Shown here piece by piece: positions 1 through 10,610 of a DNA stretch of 10,610 nt (position 1 is its first letter; each line of letters begins with the position of its first letter). A program made the position numbers and the translations under genes. Source of the stretch: a virus (taxonomy: Duplodnaviria > Heunggongvirae > Uroviricota > Caudoviricetes). The notes beneath the pieces were generated by a model, which was not told the origin of the DNA, ran no database searches, and saw nothing but the letters and a program-made list of their open reading frames with translations. The stretch lies in IMG/VR virus record IMGVR_UViG_2778261697_000001. One strand, written 5' to 3'.

Positions 1-132
1 GTCCATTTCCGCGCAGACGATGACGTCACTGCCCGGCTGTATGCGCGAGGTTACCGACTGCGGCCTGAGTTTTTTAAGTGACGTAAAATCGTGTTGAGGC
101 CAACGCCCATAATGCGGGCAGTTGCCCGGCAT
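1..132 (-). CDS. insB: IS1 InsB, 5' part only (continues beyond the window edge)
   Basis: Mirror image of 10479-10610. It reads [44 protein letters not shown] in the -1 frame relative to insA and is open to the window edge. Confidence 0.8.
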
Positions 133-326
133 CCAACGCCATTCATGGCCATATCAATGATTTTCTGGTGCGTACCGGGTTGAGAAGCGGTGTAAGTGAA
201 CTGCAGTTGCCATGTTTTACGGCAGTGAGAGCAGAGATAGCGCTGATGTCCGGCGGTGCTTTTGCCGTTACGCACCACCCCGTCAGTAGCTGAACAGGAG
301 GGACAGCTGATAGAAACAGAAGCCAC
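51..326 (-). CDS. insA: IS1 InsA (transposition inhibitor / N-terminal part of the InsAB' transposase)
   Basis: 91-aa [43 protein letters not shown]... with the characteristic Cys-rich zinc-finger start; identical to the ORF at 10285-10560. Confidence 0.95.
69..77 (-). promoter_or_regulatory. IS1 programmed -1 ribosomal frameshift motif (A6C slippery site) joining insA to insB'
   Basis: Plus strand reads GTTTTTTAA here, i.e. TTAAAAAAC on the coding strand near the 3' end of insA. That this motif drives InsAB' frameshifting is established IS1 biology. Confidence 0.7.
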
Positions 327-359
327 TGGAGCACCTCAAAAACACCATCATACACTAAA

Positions 360-692
360 TCAGTAAGTTGGCAGCATCACCGCTGGCATGAATTCATTTT
401 CAGTTCTGAATTTAATAATTATAGAGTCAGTAAAGTCCTTATCAATGGATTGTACGATACCTCTAACGGCGATTAATTTACCTTTTAACTGTTCATCGGT
501 AGCGACTTCATTTTCTTCATACTCTTTAAACAGCTGTCGAGCAGTAGTGTTGTAGATTTCTTTTTGCGGTGCCGCAGCTTCCGTATCGGATGAGTATGAA
601 GAATTAGAGCCTTTATCGTTATTGCCTGCAAAATATCCAATAATCACCAACCCGATGAAAATATATAAAATCCATTTTAATAATTTCTTCAT
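360..692 (-). CDS. Membrane-anchored OB-fold protein (tRNA_anti-like / BOF-like family), 3' end replaced by IS1 sequence
   Basis: N-terminal Lys-rich start followed by a hydrophobic helix (MKKLLKWILYIFIGLVIIGYFAG). C-terminal YEENEVATDEQLKGKLIAVRGIVQSI resembles the OB-fold tRNA_anti-like family, assigned from memory. The last 6 codons and the TGA stop (360-380) lie inside the IS1 terminal repeat, so the native C-terminus is missing. AT-rich, unlike the adjacent tail operon. Confidence 0.55.
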   Translation of the reverse strand: MKKLLKWILYIFIGLVIIGYFAGNNDKGSNSSYSSDTEAAAPQKEIYNTTARQLFKEYEENEVATDEQLKGKLIAVRGIVQSIDKDFTDSIIIKFRTENEFMPAVMLPTY

Positions 693-754: not shown

Positions 755-2131
755 ATGGCATTACCAGTAAATATTACTACTGATAATAAATATGGGACTT
801 ATATGACGTGGAAAGACAGGCTTCAGGATGCGTCATTTCGCGGCGTACCGTTTAAAGTTGAAGAAGAAAGTGCGGGAACCGGTCGCCGTGTGGAAACACA
901 CGAATACCCGAACCGCGACAAGCCCTATACTGAAGATCTGGGAAAAGTCACTTTCCGCCCGTCCATCACGGCTTATGTGGTGGGAGATGACTGCTTTGAC
1001 CAGCGCGATCGCCTGATTGATGCGCTGAATAAACCCGGTCCCGGCACGCTTGTCCATCCGACATACGGTGAGCTGAAAGTCTGTGTTGACGGGGAAGTTC
1101 GGGTCAGCACATCGAAAAGTGAAGGGCGTATTGTCCGCTTTGACCTGAAGTTTGTCGAAGCGGGAGAACTCTCTTACCCCACATCAGGTGCGGCGACGGC
1201 GCAGACGCTGATGTCATCCTGTTTTGCACTGGATGACTGCATCAGTGGCAGCTTCAGCGGTTTCAGTATCGATGGCGTGGCGGATTTCGTGCAGAACGAC
1301 GTTATCGGTAATGCCGGCACAATGCTGGGGTATGTTTCTGATGCGATGAAAGTGGTGGATTCTGCTGTATCGGATGCCGCCAGGCTGTTGCAGGGAGATA
1401 TTTCGGTACTTCTGCCGCCGCCATCGTCAGGCAAAAATTTCGTTGAGCAGGTGCAGAAAATGTGGCGTACCGGGAAGCGCCTTTATGGTAACGCCAGCGA
1501 CCTGGTCACCATGATCAAAACGCTTTCCGGTGTCAGCCTCGGCAGCGATCTGCAACCGCGCGGTGTCTGGAAAACGGACAGTAAAACCACCGCCACGGCA
1601 ACGCAGCAGCGTAACGTGGTTGCCAGCACCCTTCGTACGACCGCAATCAGCGAAGCGGCGTATGCCGTCACCCGGCTGCCTGCACCAACAACTTCCGCAG
1701 TGATGCAGAATTCCGCAGTGGGGCAGTCAACAACCCCCGCGCAGAGCACCGGCTGGCCTTCCGTCACGCATCCGGCACTGAACAATGCACCGGCGGTGAA
1801 AAACACGGTTGACCTGCCAACGTGGGAAGAACTGACCGACATTCGCGACACACTGAATACGGCAATTGAGAAGGAGTTGTCCCGTACAACCAGTGATGCG
1901 CTGTTTCTGGCGCTGCGCCGGGTGAAAGCAGATCTGAATGCGGATATCAACACGCGCCTTGAACAGTCTGCACGGATCATTCAGCGCACACCGGATGAGG
2001 TTTTACCCGCGCTGGTGCTGGCGGCGACCTGGTTTGATAACGCGGCGCGTGACGCGGACATTATCCGGCGTAATGCCATTACGCATCCCGGCTTTGTGCC
2101 GGTGATCCCTCTGAAGGTGCCAGTGCAATGA
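755..2131 (+). CDS. Mu gpN-like DNA circularisation protein (tail/baseplate module)
   Basis: 458-aa ORF. The N-terminal WKDRLQDASFRGVPFKVEEESAGTGRRVETHEYPNRDKPYTEDLG block matches the DNA_circ_N-type domain of Mu N homologues as I recall it, followed by a Ser/Thr/Ala/Pro-rich linker. The first 16 codons are AT-rich with no Shine-Dalgarno sequence, so the real start may be the ATG at 803 (MTWKDRL...). The stop overlaps the next start (ATGA at 2128-2131). Confidence 0.75.
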   Translation: MALPVNITTDNKYGTYMTWKDRLQDASFRGVPFKVEEESAGTGRRVETHEYPNRDKPYTEDLGKVTFRPSITAYVVGDDCFDQRDRLIDALNKPGPGTLVHPTYGELKVCVDGEVRVSTSKSEGRIVRFDLKFVEAGELSYPTSGAATAQTLMSSCFALDDCISGSFSGFSIDGVADFVQNDVIGNAGTMLGYVSDAMKVVDSAVSDAARLLQGDISVLLPPPSSGKNFVEQVQKMWRTGKRLYGNASDLVTMIKTLSGVSLGSDLQPRGVWKTDSKTTATATQQRNVVASTLRTTAISEAAYAVTRLPAPTTSAVMQNSAVGQSTTPAQSTGWPSVTHPALNNAPAVKNTVDLPTWEELTDIRDTLNTAIEKELSRTTSDALFLALRRVKADLNADINTRLEQSARIIQRTPDEVLPALVLAATWFDNAARDADIIRRNAITHPGFVPVIPLKVPVQ

Positions 2132-3207
2132 ACGATAACGTCACGCTACGGGTAAATGGCCGGGAGTGGAATGGCTGGACATCGGTGCGCATCGGTGCCG
2201 GTATTGAACGGCTGGCGCGGGATTTCAGTGTGGAGATCACCCGCCAGTGGCCGGGAGATGAGGGTATCACCACGCTTCAGCCGCGCATTAAAAACGGTTC
2301 AAAAGTGGAAGTGCTGATTGGTGATGAGCTGGTGATCACCGGCTGGGTGGAGGCGACTCCCGTTCGTTACGATGCCCGTTCGATCAGCACCGGTATTGCC
2401 GGACGCAGTCTGACCGCTGACCTGATTGACTGTGCAGCCGAACCGACACAGTTTAACGGACGATCGCTGGTACAGATTGCGCAGGCGCTTGCAGCGCCTT
2501 TCGGCATTGAGGTGGTGAACAGCGGCGCGCCGTCGGGTGTTATTCCTGATGTCCAGCCTGATCACGGCGAAACGGTGATTGAGGTGATCAACAAAATACT
2601 CGGTCAGCAGCAGGCACTGGCTTACGACGACCCGCACGGCAGGCTGGTGATTGGCGGTATTGGCTCAACGCGGGCACATACCGCGCTGGTACTCGGGGAA
2701 AACATCCTTTCCTGCGATACGGAGAAGAGTATCCGGGAGCGGTTTTCAGTTTACCAGGTGGCGGGGCAGCGTGCCGGAAACGACGATGATTTCGGTGAGG
2801 CTACCACCACCGCGCTGCGGGCCCGCACAGAGGACGCATTTATTGCCCGTTACCGTCCGATGTATATCAGGCAGACAGGGCAGGCTACGGGGGCAGGCTG
2901 TATTGCCCGTGCTGACTTTGAAGCCCGACAACGGGCGGCACGGACGGATGAAACCACCTATGTGGTGCAGGGCTGGCGACAGGGTAACGGTACGCTGTGG
3001 CAGCCCAACCAGCGGGTGATTGTCTTCGATCCGGTCTGTGGTTTCGATAATACCGAACTGCTTGTTTCGGAAGTCACGTTTACTCAGGACCAGAACGGCA
3101 CCCTGACGGAAATCCGTGTCGGCCCGCCTGATGCTTATCTGCCTGAACCCGAAGCCCCCGGCGCGCGGAAAAAGAAAAAAGCCAGAGTACAGGAGGACCC
3201 GTTCTGA
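2128..3207 (+). CDS. Mu gpP / gp44-like baseplate hub protein (phage late control gene D family)
   Basis: 359-aa ORF in conserved Mu-like order between the gpN-like and gpV-like genes. Start is coupled to the upstream stop; AAGGTG lies upstream. GC-rich phage-type codon usage. Family assigned from position and general sequence character. Confidence 0.7.
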   Translation: MNDNVTLRVNGREWNGWTSVRIGAGIERLARDFSVEITRQWPGDEGITTLQPRIKNGSKVEVLIGDELVITGWVEATPVRYDARSISTGIAGRSLTADLIDCAAEPTQFNGRSLVQIAQALAAPFGIEVVNSGAPSGVIPDVQPDHGETVIEVINKILGQQQALAYDDPHGRLVIGGIGSTRAHTALVLGENILSCDTEKSIRERFSVYQVAGQRAGNDDDFGEATTTALRARTEDAFIARYRPMYIRQTGQATGAGCIARADFEARQRAARTDETTYVVQGWRQGNGTLWQPNQRVIVFDPVCGFDNTELLVSEVTFTQDQNGTLTEIRVGPPDAYLPEPEAPGARKKKKARVQEDPF

Positions 3208-3755
3208 TGAGGACGATTGAAGCCATGCAGCGACAACTCCTCGGCCTGATTGGGCGGGCCGTGGTGAAAAGCATCAGTGCCGCCACGAAATGTCAGACCG
3301 TGGATGTGTCCCTGATTGCCGGTGAACCCAAAGCCGGGGTTGAGCATCTTGAACCCTACGGTTTTACCGCAAGGGCAAACAGCGGTGCAGAAGCGGTGGT
3401 GTTGTTTCCGGATGGCGACCGTTCTCATGCGGTAGTTGTTACGGTGTCGGACCGGCGCTACCGCCTGAAAGGGCTGCAGACGGGTGAGGTGGCTGTCTAT
3501 GACGATCAGGGGCAGTCCGTGATGCTGACCCGGGAGGGGATCGTGGTGGACGGTGCAGGTAAAACGATCACGTTTCGCAATGCACCTGAAGCACGTTTTG
3601 AAATGGACCTTGAAGTGACCGGACAGGTGAAAGACCTGTGCGACTCCGGCGGCACCACCATGTCAGCGATGCGGCTTGCTTATAACGGGCATCGTCACAG
3701 AGAGAACGGTCAGGGCAGTAACACCGACAAACCTGATAAAGCGATGGAGGCATGA
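3207..3755 (+). CDS. Baseplate assembly protein V / Mu gp45-like spike
   Basis: 182-aa ORF with the pattern LEPYGFTARANSGAEAVVLFPDGDRSHAVVV typical of the gpV family (from memory). Strong Shine-Dalgarno AGGAGGA at 3191-3197. Start overlaps the upstream stop (TGATG). Confidence 0.75.
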   Translation: MRTIEAMQRQLLGLIGRAVVKSISAATKCQTVDVSLIAGEPKAGVEHLEPYGFTARANSGAEAVVLFPDGDRSHAVVVTVSDRRYRLKGLQTGEVAVYDDQGQSVMLTREGIVVDGAGKTITFRNAPEARFEMDLEVTGQVKDLCDSGGTTMSAMRLAYNGHRHRENGQGSNTDKPDKAMEA

Positions 3756-4180
3756 TGGAACTGTGGCTGACGGTGAACGGTAAACGCACCTGCGCCAGCG
3801 CACCGCTGGATCCGCTGACCCGCGCCGTGGTGATTTCCCTGTTCACCTGGCGGCGGGCGGAGCCTGATGACAATGCCGACGTCCCGATGGGATGGTGGGG
3901 GGATACCTGGCCTGCGGTACAGAATGACCGTTACGGCTCCCGACTGTGGCTGCTTCAGCGCAGCAAACTGACCAATCAGCTGGTGCAGACGGTAAGGGGG
4001 TATATCCGCGAATGCCTGCAATGGATGATTGATGACGGCGTGGTGTCCCGTATTGATCTGGATATCCGCCGCACCGGGATTAATGAACTGGGTAACAGTA
4101 TCACTCTCTGGCGTCGTGACGGACCGGTAATGATTTCTTTTGATGATCTGTGGAGTGCGATAACGCATGGCGGACAGTGA
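3752..4180 (+). CDS. Mu gp46-like baseplate protein
   Basis: 142-aa ORF of the size and position of Mu gp46. GGAGG at 3746-3750; the second ATG at 3755 has the better spacing and may be the true start. Overlaps the stop of the gp45-like gene. Confidence 0.7.
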   Translation: MMELWLTVNGKRTCASAPLDPLTRAVVISLFTWRRAEPDDNADVPMGWWGDTWPAVQNDRYGSRLWLLQRSKLTNQLVQTVRGYIRECLQWMIDDGVVSRIDLDIRRTGINELGNSITLWRRDGPVMISFDDLWSAITHGGQ

Positions 4181-5225
4181 ATTTCAGCGCCCGACGCTGG
4201 CAGAAAATATCAGTATGCTCCGTAACGATTTATTCGCCAGGCTGGACGTCAGCGACACGCTCCGGCGCATGGATGAAGACGTGCGGGCAAAGGTGTATGC
4301 GGCGGCGCTGCATACGGTTTACGGGTACATCGATTATCTGGCAATGAATATGCTGCCTGACCTGTGCGATGAGTCCTGGCTGGCGCGACATGCTGCGATG
4401 AAACGGTGTCCGCGCAAGGGGGCCACGGCTGCCAGCGGGTATATGCGCTGGGAAGGTGTCAGCGATGGCCTGAAGGTGACTGCCGGGAGCGTGATTCAGC
4501 GCGATGACCTGGTTCAGTACACGGCAACTGCCGATGCAACCAGCTCCGGTGGTGTCCTGCGTGTGCCGATCACTTGCTCAACTACAGGCGCGGTCGGTAA
4601 CGCTGACGACGGTACGGCATTAATCCTGGTCACGCCGGTGAATGGTCTGCCGTCTTCCGGTGTGGCTGACACCCTGACAGGCGGATTTGATACTGAAGAG
4701 CTGGAAACGTGGCGCGCCCGCGTCATTGAGCGGTATTACTGGACGCCTCAGGGCGGGGCTGACGGGGACTATGTCGTCTGGGCTAAAGAAGTGCCCGGCA
4801 TTACCCGCGCATGGACATACCGACACTGGATGGGAACGGGGACTGTCGGTGTGATGATTGCCAGCAGTGACCTGATTAATCCCATTCCGGAAGAGTCAAC
4901 GGAAACGGCGGCAAGACAACATATCGAGCCACTGGCCCCGGTGGCAGGCTCTGATTTGTATGTATTCAGGCCGGTGGCGCATAAAGTGGATTTTCATATC
5001 CGCGTGACGCCGGACACACCGGAAATACGGGCTGCCATCACCGCGGAGTTGCGTTCGTTCTTGCTGCGTGATGGTTATCCGCAGGGAGAACTGAAGGTGT
5101 CGCGTATCAGTGAGGCGATTTCCGGTGCGAACGGGGAATACAGCCATCAGTTGCTTGCACCGGCGGACAATATCTCCATTGCAAAAAATGAACTGGCGGT
5201 ACTGGGGACGATTTCATGGACGTGA
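4167..5225 (+). CDS. Baseplate J-like protein (Mu gp47-like)
   Basis: 352-aa ORF in the expected position after the gp46-like gene, overlapping it by 14 nt. Size and order fit the baseplate J family. Confidence 0.75.
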
Positions 5226-5800
5226 CAAACGATGATTACATCCGTCTGTTGTCGGCACTGTTGCCCCCCGGTCCGGCGTGGTCAGCCAGCGATCCGGCGA
5301 TTGCCGGTGCGGCACCGTCATTAACCCGCGTTCATCAGCGTGCGGATGCCCTGATGCGGGAGCTGGATCCGCGCACCACCACTGAACTGATAAACCGCTG
5401 GGAGCGTCTGTGCGGTCTGCCGGATGAATGTATTCCCGCAGGGACACAGACCCTTCGCCAGCGTCAGCAACGGCTGGATGCGAAGGTTAACCTGGCGGGC
5501 GGCATCAATGAGGATTTTTACCTTGCGCAGCTTGCTGCCCTGGGTAGACCAGATGCCACCATCACGCGATACGACAAAAGCACGTTCACCTGCTCATCGG
5601 CTTGTACTGACGAGGTGAATGCGCCGGAATGGCGGTATTACTGGCAGGTCAATATGCCAGCTGCCACCAACACCACCTGGATGACATGTGGCGATCCCTG
5701 CGATTCCGCACTGCGTATCTGGGGGGACACCGTTATCGAGTGCGTGCTTAACAAACTCTGCCCGTCGCATACCTACGTAATTTTTAAATATCCGGAGTAA
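5216..5800 (+). CDS. Mu gp48-like tail protein (YmfQ-like, DUF2313-type)
   Basis: 194-aa ORF overlapping the baseplate J gene by 10 nt. Length and position match gp48/YmfQ-type proteins that precede tail-fibre genes. Confidence 0.7.
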
Positions 5801-5803
5801 TCC

Positions 5804-6730
5804 ATGCATCGTATAGACACGAAAACCGCGCAAAAGGATAAGTTCGGCGCGGGTAAGAACGGTTTTACCCGTGGTAACCCCCAGACAGGCACGCCTGCCA
5901 CCGATCTGGATGATGACTACTTTGACATGTTGCAGGAAGAGCTCTGCAGCGTGGTGGAGGCATCCGGTGCCAGCCTGGAGAAGGGGCGGCATGACCAGCT
6001 GCTTACCGCGCTTCGTGCGCTGCTGTTAAGTCGCAAAAATCCGTTTGGCGATATCAAATCGGACGGCACGGTGAAAACGGCTCTTCAAAACCTTGGTTTG
6101 GGAGATACAAGCGGATACGTGGGACGCTGGGTGAATACCCGGGTTTTCACGTCATCAGGTACGTACACCCCGACGCCAGGAACAAAACGGATCAGGGTCA
6201 CAATAACGGGCGGCGGTGGCGGAGGGGGCGGCTGCAAGGCTATATCCAATAATGAAACGTTTTTCGGTGCTGGCGGCGGGGCAGGTGGGACAGTAATCAC
6301 CACGCTGATCCTGACGAAGGATAGTTATCCTGTCACTATCGGCGCAGGTGGGGCCGGCGGCGTTAGTGCGACGAACGGCTTCAAGGGCGGTGATAGCTCG
6401 TTCGGATCGGTAATAGCCCCTGGTGGTGAAGGTGGTGGAAAATCAGGAGTCACAAACACGAACGGTGGTAACGGCGGTGTGCCAAGTACTGGCGGTATCA
6501 ACATCATTGGTGGAAATGGAGGCGACGGTCAGTCCGGAAATATCGGCGTCAGCGGTGAAGGCGGAACATCGTACTGGGGGGGCGGTGGACGCGCAGGCGC
6601 TGGCGGTGGTGTTAGTGGTAAGGCATATGGTTCAGGTGGCGGTGGCGCATACGATGCCGGTTATAGCGGAACCAGTATGACAGGCGGGAAAGGTGCTGCT
6701 GGGGTTTGTATTATCGAGGAGTTTGCATAA
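5804..6730 (+). CDS. Tail fibre protein with conserved N-terminal anchor domain and glycine-rich C-terminal repeat domain
   Basis: 308-aa ORF. N-terminus [53 protein letters not shown] is the conserved prophage tail-fibre N-terminal domain (from memory). From about residue 140 the C-terminus is dominated by GGxGG repeats. GGAG Shine-Dalgarno 6 nt upstream. Confidence 0.8.
6190..6700 (+). repeat. Degenerate GGN-rich coding repeats (glycine-rich domain of the tail fibre)
   Basis: Direct reading shows runs such as ggcggcggtggcggagggggcggctgc and ggcgcaggtggggccggcggcgtt. The complementary strand yields artefactual Pro-rich ORFs. Confidence 0.6.
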
Positions 6731-7146
6731 TGAATGCGTCATATGCAGTTATTGAAAATGGGATGGTTGTGAATGTCATTGTCTGGGATGGCGAGGATGA
6801 ATTCACTGTGCCGGATAATCTGCAGCTCATTAATATTTCTGATATCAGTGAGCAGCCCGGAATTGGCTGGGCGTATTCAGACGGGGTATTTACTGCGCCG
6901 CTCCCTCCGGAACGTTCTCATGATGAACTGGTAGCTGACGCTGAACAGAAAAAACAGTCGCTGATAGACGCAGCAATGGCCAATATCAGCGTGATTCAGT
7001 TAAAGCTGCAGGCCGGGCGCAAACTGACGCAAGAAGAAACTACCCGACTTAACGTTGTGCTGGATTATATCGAGGCTGTGACGGCAACAGATACCAGCAT
7101 TGCACCGGATATTGAGTGGCCGGATGAACCGTGCTTCGCTGAATAA
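6730..7146 (+). CDS. Tail fibre assembly protein (Tfa chaperone)
   Basis: The C-terminus TATDTSIAPDIEWPDEPCFAE matches the conserved Tfa C-terminal motif (lambda Tfa ends ...TSTAPDIEWP...). ATG at 6730 overlaps the tail-fibre stop and has GAGGAG 8 nt upstream. The ORF track start at 6706 is probably an upstream extension. Confidence 0.8.
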   Translation: MNASYAVIENGMVVNVIVWDGEDEFTVPDNLQLINISDISEQPGIGWAYSDGVFTAPLPPERSHDELVADAEQKKQSLIDAAMANISVIQLKLQAGRKLTQEETTRLNVVLDYIEAVTATDTSIAPDIEWPDEPCFAE

Positions 7147-7223
7147 AATCTGTTGAGGAGAAGCGGTTTAATTGTAACTCAATTCTTTTTGTGTAATAAA
7201 AGTAGGACAAAACTGTGACACAT

Positions 7224-7251
7224 AAAGCCTCGCAATGGTTTGCAAGGCTTT
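7224..7251. terminator. Candidate bidirectional intrinsic terminator between convergent tfa and acyltransferase genes
   Basis: AAAGCCTCGCAA-TGGT-TTGCAAGGCTTT: 12-bp arms with one mismatch and a 4-nt loop, with A/T tracts at both ends so a U-run follows the stem in either direction. Confidence 0.35.
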
Positions 7252-7352
7252 GAACGCTTCTATATTGAGGATGTGACGCGGTTTCGTTTATTTCCATTCT
7301 ATATATTGATGTCGATTTTTATGAATATAGAGCATACGGATAAACTGCAGTG

Positions 7353-7389
7353 TGATTAGAGTCAAAGTAATAGTTGTTGACTCTAATCA
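7353..7389. repeat. Perfect AT-rich palindrome immediately 3' of the acyltransferase gene
   Basis: GATTAGAGTCAA (7354-7365) and TTGACTCTAATC (7377-7388) are exact reverse complements separated by 11 nt; the flanking t/a extends pairing to 13 bp. No U-tract follows on either strand. Confidence 0.4.
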
Positions 7390-7406
7390 TTGCAAAGTGA
7401 CTTTAC

Positions 7407-8474
7407 TTAATGAAATTTATCTCGGATGAATTGTTGCGATGGCTTTTCAATGAATATATATGACATATAGCTAATTGCCATTAATGTAAGCATGAATAAA
7501 ATGAATACCTTGGGGCTGTAAAAAAGATCGCGTCCATAGCCAATCTTGTCAGCTAAATAAACAACAATGATTTGCAAAGGAAAATGTAAAAGATAGGATG
7601 AATAACTGATATCACCCAACCATTCAATTTTTTCCCCAAAATCGTTTCGTATTGCGCTAATTGACACAAGGAAAAAGATTATGGAGGTAAATCCGAATAA
7701 GATAATTGAGAATATATCTGCTACTTGCAGGGTAAAGATAACTCCCCATGAGATCAATAGAAAAACACAAGCAAAAATAAAAAATAACTTTGCGCTAATA
7801 TTTTTTATGACAGCAATCGTAATTTTATAGGTCAGACCACCAATAAAGAAAGAGAATGCGCCGATCATTATGGGATTGTTAATTTTGAAAAAGTAGTACG
7901 ACAATGCAACTATTAAAATTGATATGAATGTTGTTTTTGATGTGAACTTGCATAATATAAAAAATATCATGTACATAAGTACTTCAATCGACACGGACCA
8001 TGTCGGGGCGTTGAAGGACCAACCTCGCTCAAATCCCCATGATTGAATCATCAATAAATTCAGAATGGCATGGTAAATGTCATTCATAGGATAAACAAAA
8101 AAATAATTATGACTTTTAAAGAAAATAATTTGTAATATTGCCACGACAGCAAATGTAAATATATAAAGTGGATATAATCTACTGACACGGTTAACTATAA
8201 AAGTTTTTGCTGAGGTTTTATTGCTGTGTATATTGTCAGCGTATAGATAAAAAAATATGAATCCAGAAATCATAAAAAACAATTCGACAGCATATAAACC
8301 GTAATGATAAAAGACGGAAAAAAAATCATAAAAAGGTTGGCGGTTTATGATTATGTCAGATGCAGCATTCTTTTTCATAAAAAAATGTTGCCAATGCCAT
8401 AACACAACGGAAAGTGCGGCAAATCCTCTCAGAACATCCAGGGTATATATTCTCTTCCCAAAAACATTCGTCAC
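7407..8474 (-). CDS. Acyltransferase family 3 integral membrane protein (OafA/Oac-like; putative O-antigen or surface polysaccharide acetyltransferase)
   Basis: 355-aa ORF with the hallmark N-terminal motif LDVLRGFAALSVVLWH and the RLYPLY motif, and many hydrophobic helices. GTG start with AAGAGG 7 nt upstream. Very AT-rich (about 22-33% GC on sampled lines, against about 57% in the tail genes). Confidence 0.85.
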   Translation of the reverse strand: MTNVFGKRIYTLDVLRGFAALSVVLWHWQHFFMKKNAASDIIINRQPFYDFFSVFYHYGLYAVELFFMISGFIFFYLYADNIHSNKTSAKTFIVNRVSRLYPLYIFTFAVVAILQIIFFKSHNYFFVYPMNDIYHAILNLLMIQSWGFERGWSFNAPTWSVSIEVLMYMIFFILCKFTSKTTFISILIVALSYYFFKINNPIMIGAFSFFIGGLTYKITIAVIKNISAKLFFIFACVFLLISWGVIFTLQVADIFSIILFGFTSIIFFLVSISAIRNDFGEKIEWLGDISYSSYLLHFPLQIIVVYLADKIGYGRDLFYSPKVFILFMLTLMAISYMSYIFIEKPSQQFIRDKFH

Positions 8475-8970
8475 AACGAACCTCTTTTAATAAAGTCAAG
8501 TGATAATGAAAGATAAATATTGTAAACGAAAAAATACTGGACTGGAACATATATCTCTGCCTGTAATTTAACCAAGATAATTTTACTAACGCAGTCATAA
8601 TTCGTTCATGTATACCAGATGAAAGTACATGTTCTATGAAATAGGGTTTTGCCTAGAGTTTGAAGGTTTTTAACGATTATACCTGTTTAATCGACTCCCC
8701 ATGTTTTTTGACATTATCCACCGCACACGATACTGGATGCCAGGTAAACTGATTTGCTGGCATAAAGTCACTGAGAATTTTTTACCAACAATATCTTGCC
8801 ACATCTTTTCCCGTACAGTTTCGGCAATAGAATCAGCGGGCAGCGGTCATCAATATTCACCAGACATTGATCTGCCGCACTATCTGACCGGTGTCCTGCT
8901 GAGAATACTAATTTCTTTTTTTTGCAAGTGCTGTCCAATCATGATTGGGGGGGGCTGGCGGAGTTGAAAA

Positions 8971-9002
8971 CGCAGACACGTTGTATGCAATAACGTGCTG
9001 CG
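8971..9002 (-). terminator. Stem-loop A, 24 nt downstream of the GIY-YIG stop; candidate intrinsic terminator and copy 1 of a hairpin repeat
   Basis: GCAG-a-CACGTT-[gtatgcaat]-AACGTG-CTGC with a flanking C-G pair. On the minus strand it is followed by GTTTTCAACTCC. Confidence 0.4.
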
Positions 9003-9025
9003 GTTTAATCTTATCAATTGAATAC

Positions 9026-9895
<870 letters not shown>

Positions 9896-9990
9896 CTAAC
9901 CCTTTGAATTTACATAGCGCAAAAAGATACCTTTCCTCATAATGTGAGCTAATTTTATGTTTCGTTTGATGATCGGGTCGGTCTCGAAAC

Positions 9991-10024
9991 CCGTAGCCAC
10001 GTCGTATGCAAGAACGTGCTACGG
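9991..10024 (-). repeat. Stem-loop B, copy 2 of the hairpin repeat, upstream of the GIY-YIG gene
   Basis: GTAG-c-CACGT-[cgtatgcaaga]-ACGTG-CTAC with two flanking C-G pairs. Homologous to stem-loop A; the outer stem carries a compensatory C-G to T-A change. Confidence 0.4.
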
Positions 10025-10284
10025 TTAGCTGGTGAAATGTCGATAGTGCGAGTGTTGAATAATTTCTAGCCGTTATTGATTTTACGTATTTTTGTATGAG
10101 ATGATTTGCATCTCCTGCCACCGACCATCTATGACTATACGTCACCATTTCTAGGGCTGCTATGTGCCAAGAGCGGTAATTGACAGAGAGCAGCCCTATC
10201 TCAGTGGCTTTATTTTTTTAGAGATTGCAGGTGATGCTGCCAACTTACTGATTTAGTGTATGATGGTGTTTTTGAGGTGCTCCA

Positions 10285-10560
10285 GTGGCTTCTGTTTCTA
10301 TCAGCTGTCCCTCCTGTTCAGCTACTGACGGGGTGGTGCGTAACGGCAAAAGCACCGCCGGACATCAGCGCTATCTCTGCTCTCACTGCCGTAAAACATG
10401 GCAACTGCAGTTCACTTACACCGCTTCTCAACCCGGTACGCACCAGAAAATCATTGATATGGCCATGAATGGCGTTGGATGCCGGGCAACTGCCCGCATT
10501 ATGGGCGTTGGCCTCAACACGATTTTACGTCACTTAAAAAACTCAGGCCGCAGTCGGTAA
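10285..10560 (+). CDS. insA: IS1 InsA
   Basis: 91-aa ORF identical to the copy at 51-326. Confidence 0.95.
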
Positions 10561-10610
10561 CCTCGCGCATACAGCCGGGCAGTGACGTCATCGTCTGCGC
10601 GGAAATGGAC
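10479..10610 (+). CDS. insB: IS1 InsB, 5' part only (continues beyond the window end)
   Basis: ATG at 10479 opens the frame [44 protein letters not shown], which matches the InsB N-terminus as I recall it and is open to the window edge. Confidence 0.8.
10534..10542 (+). promoter_or_regulatory. IS1 programmed -1 ribosomal frameshift motif (TTAAAAAAC)
   Basis: A6C slippery sequence near the 3' end of insA, in the overlap with the insB frame. Confidence 0.7.

What the first reader, a model, noticed from the sequence alone, without database searches (positions are those of the whole stretch)
5804..6730. Tail fibre with a long glycine-rich repeat C-terminus encoded by recombination-prone GGN repeats
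The distal 170 residues or so are dominated by GGxGG motifs rather than a recognisable receptor-binding fold, and the gene is short for a Mu-type fibre. The repetitive DNA could expand or contract by slippage or recombination, diversifying the receptor-binding end.
Basis: seen in the sequence. Interest (0 to 1): 0.35.

Follow-up and report, generated by a model that had tools for sequence, protein, structure and literature searches.

The report
Short phage tail fibre, glycine-lattice tip
This gene encodes an ordinary short prophage tail fibre whose glycine-rich end is a fixed-size, well-known receptor-binding fold (as in cyanophage Pam3 gp24), not an expandable repeat array.

Summary
The ORF is real: 5804-6730, + strand, 308 aa. 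Its last 173 residues are 37.6% glycine.

- **Known domain.** The Gly-rich part matches Pfam PF21722. A profile of homologues hits the solved Pam3 fibre gp24 at E 2.4e-19. An AlphaFold model (pLDDT 97) superposes on it with TM 0.74.
- **DNA not repetitive.** The only tandem repeat is a 24-nt (GGN)8 tract. The longest exact direct repeat is 10 nt, no more than synonymous shuffles give.
- **Length almost fixed.** Of 118 near-full-length close homologues, 113 are 308 aa. The other five carry 2-3 residue deletions in the Gly8 run.
- **How it really varies.** Substitutions cluster at non-glycine positions of aa 164-250. Whole cassettes are also swapped. The first 101 aa match the SfV short fibre, and the tip plus its chaperone gene are 97.7% identical to a P2-like prophage fibre.
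- **Context.** Here the gene sits in an IS1-flanked prophage remnant without sheath or tube genes.

Verdict: an ordinary new member of a known kind, of low interest.

The parts
5804..6730 (+). Tail fibre gene, 308 aa, intact ORF (ATG to TAA).
   Evidence: ORF list. PHROGs tail-fibre families 6202, 863 and 454. The same 308-aa gene follows the gp48-like gene in intact prophages L005-L012.
5804..6106 (+). N-terminal module (aa 1-101), predicted helical. It is shared with SfV-type short fibres and probably docks to the baseplate. It ends at the motif NLGLG(D/E).
   Evidence: 96% identical to aa 1-101 of SfV orf21, with homology stopping after NLGLG. Gene nt 1-302/303 recur in many of the 1925 E. 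coli genomes that match the gene at all, whereas only 67 carry at least 80% of it. AlphaFold helices at 37-53, 65-75, 80-86 and 90-96. Weak matches to the Mu fibre S N-terminus: profile E 0.0025 to 5yvq/9ki1, and Foldseek 9ki1_j.
6152..6718 (+). TNF-like plus glycine-rich domain (Pfam Gly_rich_2, aa 117-305). The fold model covers aa 105-308.
   Evidence: PF21722 at E 8.3e-15, 55.8 bits against a cut-off of 24.3. Profile versus Pam3 gp24 at E 2.4e-19. Domain model with pLDDT 97.2 and pTM 0.92. Foldseek 7ypx_A: TM 0.74, rmsd 3.5 A, 30% identity, probability 1.0.
6208..6231 (+). (GGN)8 tract encoding Gly136-143. It is the only tandem DNA repeat in the gene and the only site of length polymorphism among close homologues.
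   Evidence: Tandem Repeats Finder. Alignment gaps occur only at columns 136-138. The 305-aa allele in L003/L004 lacks GGAGGGGGC between GGCGG repeats. Five deletion alleles each have a 308-aa relative that is identical over the 300 residues compared outside the tract.
6293..6553 (+). Variable segment (aa 164-250). Substitutions sit at non-Gly positions between invariant glycine motifs.
   Evidence: Mean column entropy is 0.41 here against 0.05-0.14 elsewhere, with 33 variable columns. dN/dS is 0.38 here against 0.04-0.18 elsewhere, and dS is also raised (0.32 against 0.13-0.19).
6730..7146 (+). Tail fibre assembly chaperone gene (138 aa). Its ATG overlaps the fibre stop (TAATG), and GAGGAG lies 11 nt upstream.
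   Evidence: PF02413 Caudo_TAP at E 1.9e-21. Gene callers give a 138-aa product starting at the fibre stop codon in L003-L007, L009 and L010. Sequence read.
6090..7110 (+). Exchangeable cassette: the fibre tip plus most of the chaperone gene. It is shared with the fibre of a P2-like prophage.
   Evidence: 1021 nt at 97.7% identity to L002 6001-7021, in E. coli DETEC-E601. There it forms the C-terminus of a 2034-nt fibre gene that follows P2-type baseplate genes (V, W, J, I).
5216..5800 (+). Mu gp48-like wedge protein (YmfQ family). It is the likely attachment partner of the fibre. This role is an inference.
   Evidence: PF10076 at E 6.9e-27. In Pam3 the fibres link to wedge subunit gp23 (PMC9942802).

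Best explanation
The gene encodes a short, modular tail fibre of an SfV-like temperate phage that has a Mu-type contractile tail.

**Architecture**
- Residues 1-101 form a conserved helical module that fixes the fibre to the Mu-type baseplate wedge. This role is an inference.
- Residues about 105-308 form one compact domain of fixed size: a TNF-like beta-sandwich whose strands extend into a lattice of glycine-rich motifs. It is the fold solved in cyanophage Pam3 gp24 and is related to the ALK/LTK TG domain.
- The glycines are structural. In the solved homologue they allow tight main-chain packing, which explains why they are invariant here.

**Function and variation**
- The non-glycine residues between the motifs (aa 164-250) are the variable part. 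They most likely form the receptor-binding surface, probably for LPS or another surface glycan. This is inferred by analogy with gp24-like Klebsiella phage fibres.
- The downstream Caudo_TAP protein is the folding and trimerisation chaperone.
- Host-range variation arises from point substitutions in that segment and from exchange of the tip-plus-chaperone cassette at the conserved NLGLG junction. It does not arise from changes in repeat number.

**Status in this genome**
- The gene lies in an IS1-bounded prophage remnant, so it cannot by itself contribute to a virion.
For: **Shown**
- Mu-type baseplate genes lie upstream and a Caudo_TAP gene downstream.
- PF21722 matches above its curated cut-off.
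- A 73-sequence profile hits Pam3 gp24 at E 2.4e-19.
- The domain model has pLDDT 97.2. Foldseek gives 7ypx_A with TM 0.74 and 30% identity. Bxb1 tail-tip chains and ALK/LTK TG domains follow.
- The domain is found in 7288 cluster representatives. In 134 near-full matches its span varies only -21 to +19 aa, and it ends within 5 aa of the C terminus in 131 of them. The N-terminal parts range from 8 to 1196 aa.
- Glycines are invariant, and variation is concentrated at aa 164-250.
- The N-terminal module is shared with SfV orf21 up to NLGLG.
- The tip-plus-tfa cassette is 97.7% identical to one in a P2-like prophage.
- The same fibre-tfa-acyltransferase arm occurs in prophages that keep sheath, tube and tape-measure genes.

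**From papers**
[quoted passage not shown] Its chaperone is gp25 (PMC9608196).
- Pam3 has a Mu-like six-component baseplate (PMC9942802).
- The gp24-like fibre TFP_Y of a Klebsiella phage recognises LPS. Host-range mutations T169 and S209 lie in its glycine-rich domain (PMC12671077).
Against: - No experiment exists on this protein. Its receptor, its trimeric state and its attachment to gp48 are inferred.
- Single-sequence similarity to Pam3 gp24 is weak (phmmer E 0.75). The link rests on the profile and the fold comparison.
- dN/dS in the variable segment is below 1 (0.38). Diversifying selection is therefore not demonstrated, and the raised dS points to imported divergent segments instead.
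- Model coordinates cannot be inspected, so the lattice geometry and the position of the variable residues on the distal face were not verified.
- In this window the prophage lacks sheath, tube and tape-measure genes, so the gene may be functionally inert here.
Confidence: 0.85

Rival explanations
1. The GGN-rich DNA acts as a slippage- or recombination-prone array. Its expansion and contraction change the length of the receptor-binding end and so diversify host range.
For: - A (GGN)8 tract exists at 6208-6231.
- Five cluster representatives carry Gly5 or Gly6 in place of Gly8. Each has a 308-aa relative that is identical over the 300 residues compared outside the tract, so the deletions are recent and recurrent.
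- The 9-nt deletion lies between GGCGG microhomologies.
Against: - The polymorphism is confined to one 24-nt tract, and only deletions of 2-3 residues occur.
- No run longer than 8 Gly is seen in the 120 close homologues or the 149 representatives.
- The variants are rare: 1-3 contigs each, against 238 contigs for the common allele P0005.
- The rest of the domain has no gaps at all.
- The DNA is no more repetitive than synonymous shuffles.
- The tract corresponds to the first glycine motif. In Pam3 the first loop, L1, lies at the conserved centre of the lattice and not at the variable tip (PMC9608196).
- L003 and L004, which carry the 305-aa allele, also have a split acyltransferase gene, and L003 has a split sheath gene as well. 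Decay is therefore an alternative reading.
Confidence: 0.06
2. The reading in the RefSeq annotation. The locus is a broken stfP pseudogene (N-terminal fragment) followed by a separate gene for a glycine-rich protein. On this view it is a decaying chimera and not one functional fibre gene.
For: - PGAP annotates 'stfP, incomplete, missing C-terminus' plus a 'glycine-rich domain-containing protein' in NZ_CP086338.
- The surrounding prophage is truncated by IS1.
Against: - There is one uninterrupted 308-aa frame.
- The same 308-aa architecture occurs in well over a hundred 90%-identity clusters and on hundreds of contigs, including prophages that keep sheath, tube and tape-measure genes.
- dN/dS is 0.04-0.38 across the gene, which indicates purifying selection in the family.
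- The join falls exactly at the NLGLG junction that other fibres also use.
Confidence: 0.04
3. A monomeric T-even gp38-type adhesin (as in phage S16 or T2) that caps another fibre protein, not a self-contained trimeric fibre.
For: Both have glycine-rich motifs that separate variable segments. The Pam3 authors note an architectural resemblance to S16 gp38 (PMC9608196).
Against: - S16 gp38 (6F45) is not among the 50 best PDB matches of either model, while Pam3 gp24, Bxb1 and ALK/LTK are.
- The protein has its own baseplate-docking N-terminus, shared with SfV orf21.
- No gp37-like fibre gene is present in the module.
Confidence: 0.03
4. A carbohydrate kinase, the name given to this protein in many GenBank records.
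For: Only the names given by sources.
Against: - No kinase family matches in Pfam or NCBIfam.
- Every sequence, fold and context result points to a tail fibre.
Confidence: 0.01

Closest known systems
Cyanophage Pam3 tail fibre gp24 with chaperone gp25 (PDB 7YPX, 7YFW)
   Same: - Three-part plan in a protein of about 280-310 aa: N-terminal helical docking part, TNF-like sandwich and C-terminal glycine-rich domain.
- About 12-13 glycine motifs and 38-39% Gly.
- The gene follows a Mu-like minimal baseplate and is followed by a chaperone gene.
- Profile E 2.4e-19 and TM 0.74.
   Different: - Only 27-30% identity in the structural alignment.
- The N-terminal module here is the enterobacterial SfV-type one. 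The profile alignment starts only at Pam3 residue 47.
- The chaperone here is a Caudo_TAP protein. Its relation to gp25 was not tested.
- Host and receptor are different.
Shigella phage SfV orf21 short tail fibre (and the SfI, SfII and SfIV equivalents)
   Same: - aa 1-101 are 96% identical.
- Same gene order: gp48-like gene, fibre, tfa, then O-antigen-modifying genes on the opposite strand.
   Different: After NLGLG the SfV protein (216 aa) has an unrelated C-terminal domain. Relatives in E. coli are annotated 'gp53-like domain-containing protein'. There is no glycine-rich domain.
Klebsiella phage SCNJ1-Y fibre TFP_Y (gp24-like)
   Same: [quoted passage not shown] LPS is the receptor, and host-range changes arise from point mutations in the glycine-rich domain (PMC12671077). 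This is the mode of variation inferred here.
   Different: It comes from a lytic phage with a different N-terminal domain.
ALK/LTK extracellular TNF-like plus glycine-rich (TG) domain (PDB 7NX3, 7LS0, 7NX1)
   Same: The same kind of TNF-like sandwich carrying a glycine lattice. Foldseek probability 0.82-0.96.
   Different: TM is only about 0.3 and identity 13-15%. It is the ligand-binding domain of a eukaryotic receptor kinase, so the relation is one of fold class only.
Salmonella phage S16 / T-even gp38 adhesin (PDB 6F45)
   Same: Conserved glycine-rich motifs form a scaffold that displays variable receptor-binding segments (from PMC9608196).
   Different: It is not recovered among the 50 best matches of either fold search. 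According to the paper, gp38 has a three-layer lattice of 10 motifs on a beta-helix domain and caps the gp37 fibre.
Phage Mu tail fibre S (PDB 5YVQ, 9KI1)
   Same: Mu-type baseplate context. There is a weak N-terminal similarity: profile E 0.0025, and Foldseek 9ki1_j with probability 1.0 and TM 0.40 on the target.
   Different: Mu S is 504 aa with a different distal domain. It belongs to an invertible G segment. No invertase gene appears in the window's ORF list and no duplicated inverted tip was found.

Membership tests
Pfam PF21722 Gly_rich_2 (glycine-rich domain) | Score above the curated gathering threshold over most of the model | tested here: met
   55.8 bits against a cut-off of 24.3, E 8.3e-15, protein aa 117-305 on model positions 2-224 of 226.
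Pam3 gp24-type short tail fibre | TNF-like beta-sandwich plus glycine-rich C-terminal domain (fold-level match to the solved structure) | tested here: met
   Profile E 2.4e-19 to 7yfw/7ypx. Model pLDDT 97.2. Foldseek 7ypx_A: TM 0.74, rmsd 3.5 A, probability 1.0.
Pam3 gp24-type short tail fibre | About 12 glycine-rich motifs and about 39% Gly in the distal domain | tested here: met
   13 motifs between aa 136 and 295, and 37.6% Gly over aa 136-308. Pam3 values from PMC9608196.
Pam3 gp24-type short tail fibre | N-terminal alpha-helical domain that docks to the baseplate wedge | tested here: inconclusive
   Helices are predicted at 37-53, 65-75, 80-86 and 90-96, but block-mean pLDDT over this part is only 56-89, and aa 1-19 are below 50. 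The module is shared with SfV orf21. Docking itself was not tested.
Pam3 gp24-type short tail fibre | Four-layer lattice of extended glycine motifs held by main-chain hydrogen bonds; homotrimer | not testable with these tools
   Model coordinates are not exposed and only monomers can be predicted. DSSP shows the Gly motifs as non-helix, non-strand, which is compatible with the lattice but not diagnostic.
Pam3 gp24-type short tail fibre | Dedicated chaperone gene immediately downstream, and a Mu-like minimal baseplate upstream | tested here: met
   Caudo_TAP at E 1.9e-21, with its start overlapping the fibre stop. Upstream lie Baseplate_J and Mu gp48 Pfam hits and ORFs annotated as DNA circularization protein, baseplate assembly protein, baseplate assembly protein V and GP46 family protein.
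T-even gp38 adhesin (S16 type) | Fold match to S16 gp38 (6F45) | tested here: not met
   6F45 is absent from the 50 best PDB matches of both models.
Variable-number tandem repeat / contingency locus | Tandem DNA repeats spanning the variable region | tested here: not met
   Only a 24-nt (GGN)8 tract. The longest exact repeat is 10 nt, within the range of synonymous shuffles.
Variable-number tandem repeat / contingency locus | Copy-number variation among close homologues | tested here: inconclusive
   5 of 118 near-full-length close homologues have Gly5 or Gly6 in place of Gly8, on different backgrounds. There are no expansions and no other indels. The functional effect is unknown.
Mu/P1-type invertible fibre segment (S/S', Gin/Cin) | Invertase gene and an inverted duplicate of the fibre tip and tfa | tested here: not met
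   No invertase gene appears in the window's ORF list or in the RefSeq annotation of the same DNA. Only two weak inverted repeats of 17-24 nt, 75-82% complementary. An acyltransferase gene follows tfa.

The most novel reading that the evidence does not exclude
The (GGN)8 tract may be a small contingency site. On this reading the recurrent in-frame 6- or 9-nt deletions (Gly8 to Gly6 or Gly5), seen on five different allelic backgrounds, would be selected functional variants. They would shorten the first glycine motif of the lattice and retune receptor binding or fibre stability. The alternative is that they are neutral or damaging slips in decaying prophages.
Probability: 0.06. Interest if true: 0.4.

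Novelty: new member of a known kind. Interest (0 to 1): 0.12.

Why it matters
The result matters mainly as a correction.
- A glycine-rich fibre end that looks like low-complexity, slippage-prone sequence is in fact a rigid, conserved receptor-binding scaffold. It is widespread, with 7288 cluster representatives.
- In E. coli this scaffold moves together with its chaperone gene as a cassette between Mu/SfV-type and P2-type tails.
- Two annotation errors come to light. GenBank names this protein 'carbohydrate kinase', and RefSeq splits it into a pseudogene plus a separate gene.
- For phage engineering, the NLGLG junction and the aa 164-250 segment are the obvious places to swap or mutate to change host range.
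- Nothing here is surprising to a specialist in phage tail fibres.

Tried and rejected
- **Tandem and direct DNA repeats.** Nothing was found beyond the 24-nt tract.
- **NCBIfam.** No family matched.
- **Single-sequence search of PDB sequences.** It gave only E 0.75 to Pam3 gp24. The link became significant only with a profile.
- **Inverted repeats or an invertible segment around the fibre and tfa.** Only two weak pairs were found, and the idea was rejected.
- **Promoter and terminator scan of 5600-7500.** Counts were at shuffle level and not informative.
- **Positive selection on the variable segment.** Pairwise Nei-Gojobori dN/dS was 0.26-0.58, so it is not demonstrated.
- **Literature.** No paper mentions PF21722. 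No paper was found on this E. coli/Shigella prophage fibre.
- **Full-length model.** It gave a poor global superposition (rmsd 12-14 A), probably because the N-terminal part, predicted with low confidence in the monomer, is not placed as in the solved fibre. I repeated the search with the domain alone.
- **'Carbohydrate kinase'.** Rejected for lack of any supporting match.

Full report
**1. The observation**

Residues 136-308 contain 65 glycines in 173 residues (37.6%). The other phage proteins of the window contain 7.5% (binomial tail about 7e-29). The glycines form 13 short motifs, for example [22 protein letters not shown] and GGNGG.

The DNA is not a repeat array. Tandem Repeats Finder reports only 6208-6231, a (GGN)8 tract. 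The direct-repeat families are two-copy matches of 13-24 nt, three of them at 71-77% identity and a 13-nt pair at 92%. The longest exact direct repeat is 10 nt. Shuffling synonymous codons most often gives 11 nt, and 143 of 500 shuffles give 10 nt or less. The composition is real, but the 'recombination-prone GGN repeats' are not.

**2. Context**

- Upstream lie a DNA-circulation gene, a Mu gpP-like baseplate gene, and genes for baseplate V, gp46, baseplate J and gp48/YmfQ.
- Downstream, a 138-aa Caudo_TAP tail-fibre assembly gene starts at 6730, overlapping the fibre stop codon (TAATG). GAGGAG lies 11 nt upstream.
- On the opposite strand follow an Acyl_transf_3 gene at 31% GC and a LEM-3-like GIY-YIG gene.
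- The window is 100% identical to the E. coli EJN001 chromosome over the fibre gene.
- Positions 1-381 and 10230-10610 are identical inverted IS1 ends. Positions 800-10090 are 97.3% identical to the right arm of prophages that keep tail terminator, sheath, tube, tape-measure and baseplate genes. The window therefore holds a 9.3-kb prophage remnant.
- Phage SfV has the same order: gp48-like gene, short fibre, tfa, then O-antigen-modifying genes on the opposite strand.

**3. What the glycine-rich part is**

- Pfam places aa 117-305 in PF21722 (Gly_rich_2) at E 8.3e-15, well above the curated cut-off.
- PHROGs tail-fibre families match at E down to 4e-92.
- An exhaustive HMMER search with aa 100-308 found 7288 cluster representatives at E up to 0.001.
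- In the 134 near-full matches among the 150 best, the domain span differs from the query by only -21 to +19 residues (median +3).
- In those matches the domain ends within 5 residues of the C terminus in 131 of 134. The part in front of it ranges from 8 to 1196 residues.
- This is the signature of a fixed-size terminal domain mounted on shafts of many lengths.
- A profile of 73 homologues hits the solved Pam3 fibre gp24 at E 2.4e-19. The single sequence gave only E 0.75.
- AlphaFold models are very confident for this part. Block-mean pLDDT is 95 or more from residue 111 on in the full-length model. The domain alone reaches mean pLDDT 97.2 and pTM 0.92.
- Foldseek puts Pam3 gp24 first (7ypx_A: TM 0.74, rmsd 3.5 A, 30% identity, probability 1.0). 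Mycobacteriophage Bxb1 tail-tip chains and the ALK/LTK TG domains follow.
- BFVD returns 256 viral proteins at E up to 0.001, many named 'glycine-rich domain-containing protein' or tail fibre.
- The Pam3 papers describe gp24 as an N-terminal helical docking domain, a TNF-like sandwich and a glycine-rich domain. That domain has 12 glycine motifs in a four-layer lattice, 39% Gly and a variable distal tip. Folding is assisted by chaperone gp25, and the baseplate is Mu-like with six components (PMC9608196 and PMC9942802).
- The present gene reproduces that plan almost point for point.

**4. How it varies**

Length:
- Among the 120 best homologues (88-100% identity), 113 are 308 aa. Five are 305 or 306 aa and two are truncated.
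- Alignment gaps occur only at columns 136-138, inside the Gly8 run.
- The five short alleles have Gly5 or Gly6. Each has a 308-aa relative that is identical over the 300 residues compared outside the tract, so the deletions are recent and arose on different backgrounds.
- In L003 and L004 the change is a 9-nt deletion (GGAGGGGGC) between GGCGG microhomologies.
- No run longer than 8 Gly occurs in the close set or in 149 representatives.

Substitutions:
- Real variation is by substitution at non-glycine positions of aa 164-250. Mean column entropy there is 0.41 against 0.05-0.14 elsewhere.
- Pairwise dN/dS is highest there (0.38 against 0.04-0.18) but stays below 1. dS is also raised (0.32 against 0.13-0.19), which suggests import of divergent segments as much as selection.

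Cassette exchange:
- aa 1-101 are 96% identical to SfV orf21, and homology stops right after NLGLG.
- Gene nt 1-302/303 recur in many of the 1925 E. coli genomes that match the gene at all. Only 67 genomes carry at least 80% of the gene.
- From nt 6090 (the same NLGLG codons) to 7110, the tip plus most of the tfa gene is 97.7% identical to the end of a 2034-nt fibre gene in a P2-like prophage.
- Cluster representatives of 401-1405 aa carry the same tip at 86-94% identity.

**5. Mechanism**

Shown: a modular fibre gene with a Pam3-type terminal domain, a co-transferred chaperone gene, invariant glycines and variable inter-motif residues.

Inferred:
- The N-terminal module docks to the gp48-like wedge protein.
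- The protein trimerises with the help of Tfa.
- The variable residues contact the receptor, most likely LPS or O-antigen. This rests on analogy with the gp24-like Klebsiella phage fibre TFP_Y. There LPS triggers DNA ejection, and host-range mutations map to the glycine-rich domain (PMC12671077).
- The neighbouring O-antigen-type acyltransferase fits a phage that recognises and then modifies surface polysaccharide. This link is speculative.
- In strain EJN001 the remnant cannot build a tail, so the gene is at most a reservoir for recombination.

**6. Comparison and novelty**

The protein meets the tested defining features of PF21722 and of the Pam3 gp24 type. It fails the test for the T-even gp38 fold, because 6F45 is not among the 50 best matches of either model. 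It also fails the tests for a tandem-repeat locus and for a Mu-type invertible fibre.

Identical proteins are already in public databases under misleading names. GenBank uses 'carbohydrate kinase'. RefSeq splits the ORF into a 'stfP pseudogene' plus a 'glycine-rich domain-containing protein'.

I found no paper on this enterobacterial prophage fibre. I therefore rate it a new member of a known kind, of low interest.

Noticed in passing
window 1-381 and 10230-10610; 800-10090: Identical inverted IS1 ends bracket a 9.3-kb fragment that is 97.3% identical to the right arm of SfV-like prophages. In other genomes those prophages keep sheath, tube and tape-measure genes. The window is therefore a prophage remnant.
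   Followed up: yes
window 5804-6730 (NZ_CP086338 934928-935854): Annotation problems. RefSeq splits the intact 308-aa ORF into 'stfP, incomplete' plus a 'glycine-rich domain-containing protein'. GenBank calls identical or near-identical proteins 'carbohydrate kinase', with no family support.
   Followed up: yes
window 7407-8474 (- strand): An Acyl_transf_3 gene at about 31% GC sits where SfV carries gtrV/gtrB. It is probably an O-antigen acetylation (serotype-conversion) moron. It is split into two ORFs in L003 and L004.
   Followed up: partly
window 9026-9850 (- strand): A LEM-3-like GIY-YIG domain protein (PF22945) lies at the prophage end and is conserved in all related prophage arms examined. 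Its role is unknown.
   Followed up: no
window 5216-5800 and 5804-6106: The gp48-like wedge protein has 8 cysteines (66, 72, 126, 130, 158, 162, 176, 182). The fibre's N-terminal helical module has one invariant Cys48. In Pam3, fibre Cys28 is disulfide-linked to cysteine-rich loops of the wedge (PMC9942802). Covalent anchoring may occur here too, but this was not tested.
   Followed up: no
window 6233-6235 and 6707-6709 (Cys144, Cys302): Two cysteines in the glycine-rich domain are invariant among close homologues. One directly follows the Gly8 run and the other lies in the last strand. They may form an intradomain disulfide.
   Followed up: no
window 6730-7146: The tfa start codon overlaps the fibre stop codon (TAATG), with GAGGAG upstream, which suggests translational coupling. 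RefSeq calls a shorter tfa starting at 6763.
   Followed up: partly
window 360-692 (- strand): An OB-fold (tRNA_anti-like, PF12869) putative lipoprotein gene lies between the left IS1 and the prophage fragment. The sequence 382-799 is not part of the related prophages.
   Followed up: partly
PDB 8gl8_D (RemZ), seen from profile A2: The fibre-domain profile also hits the first 198 residues of RemZ at E 1e-4. RemZ is a 1114-aa non-phage protein. The glycine-rich domain therefore also occurs outside phage fibres.
   Followed up: no
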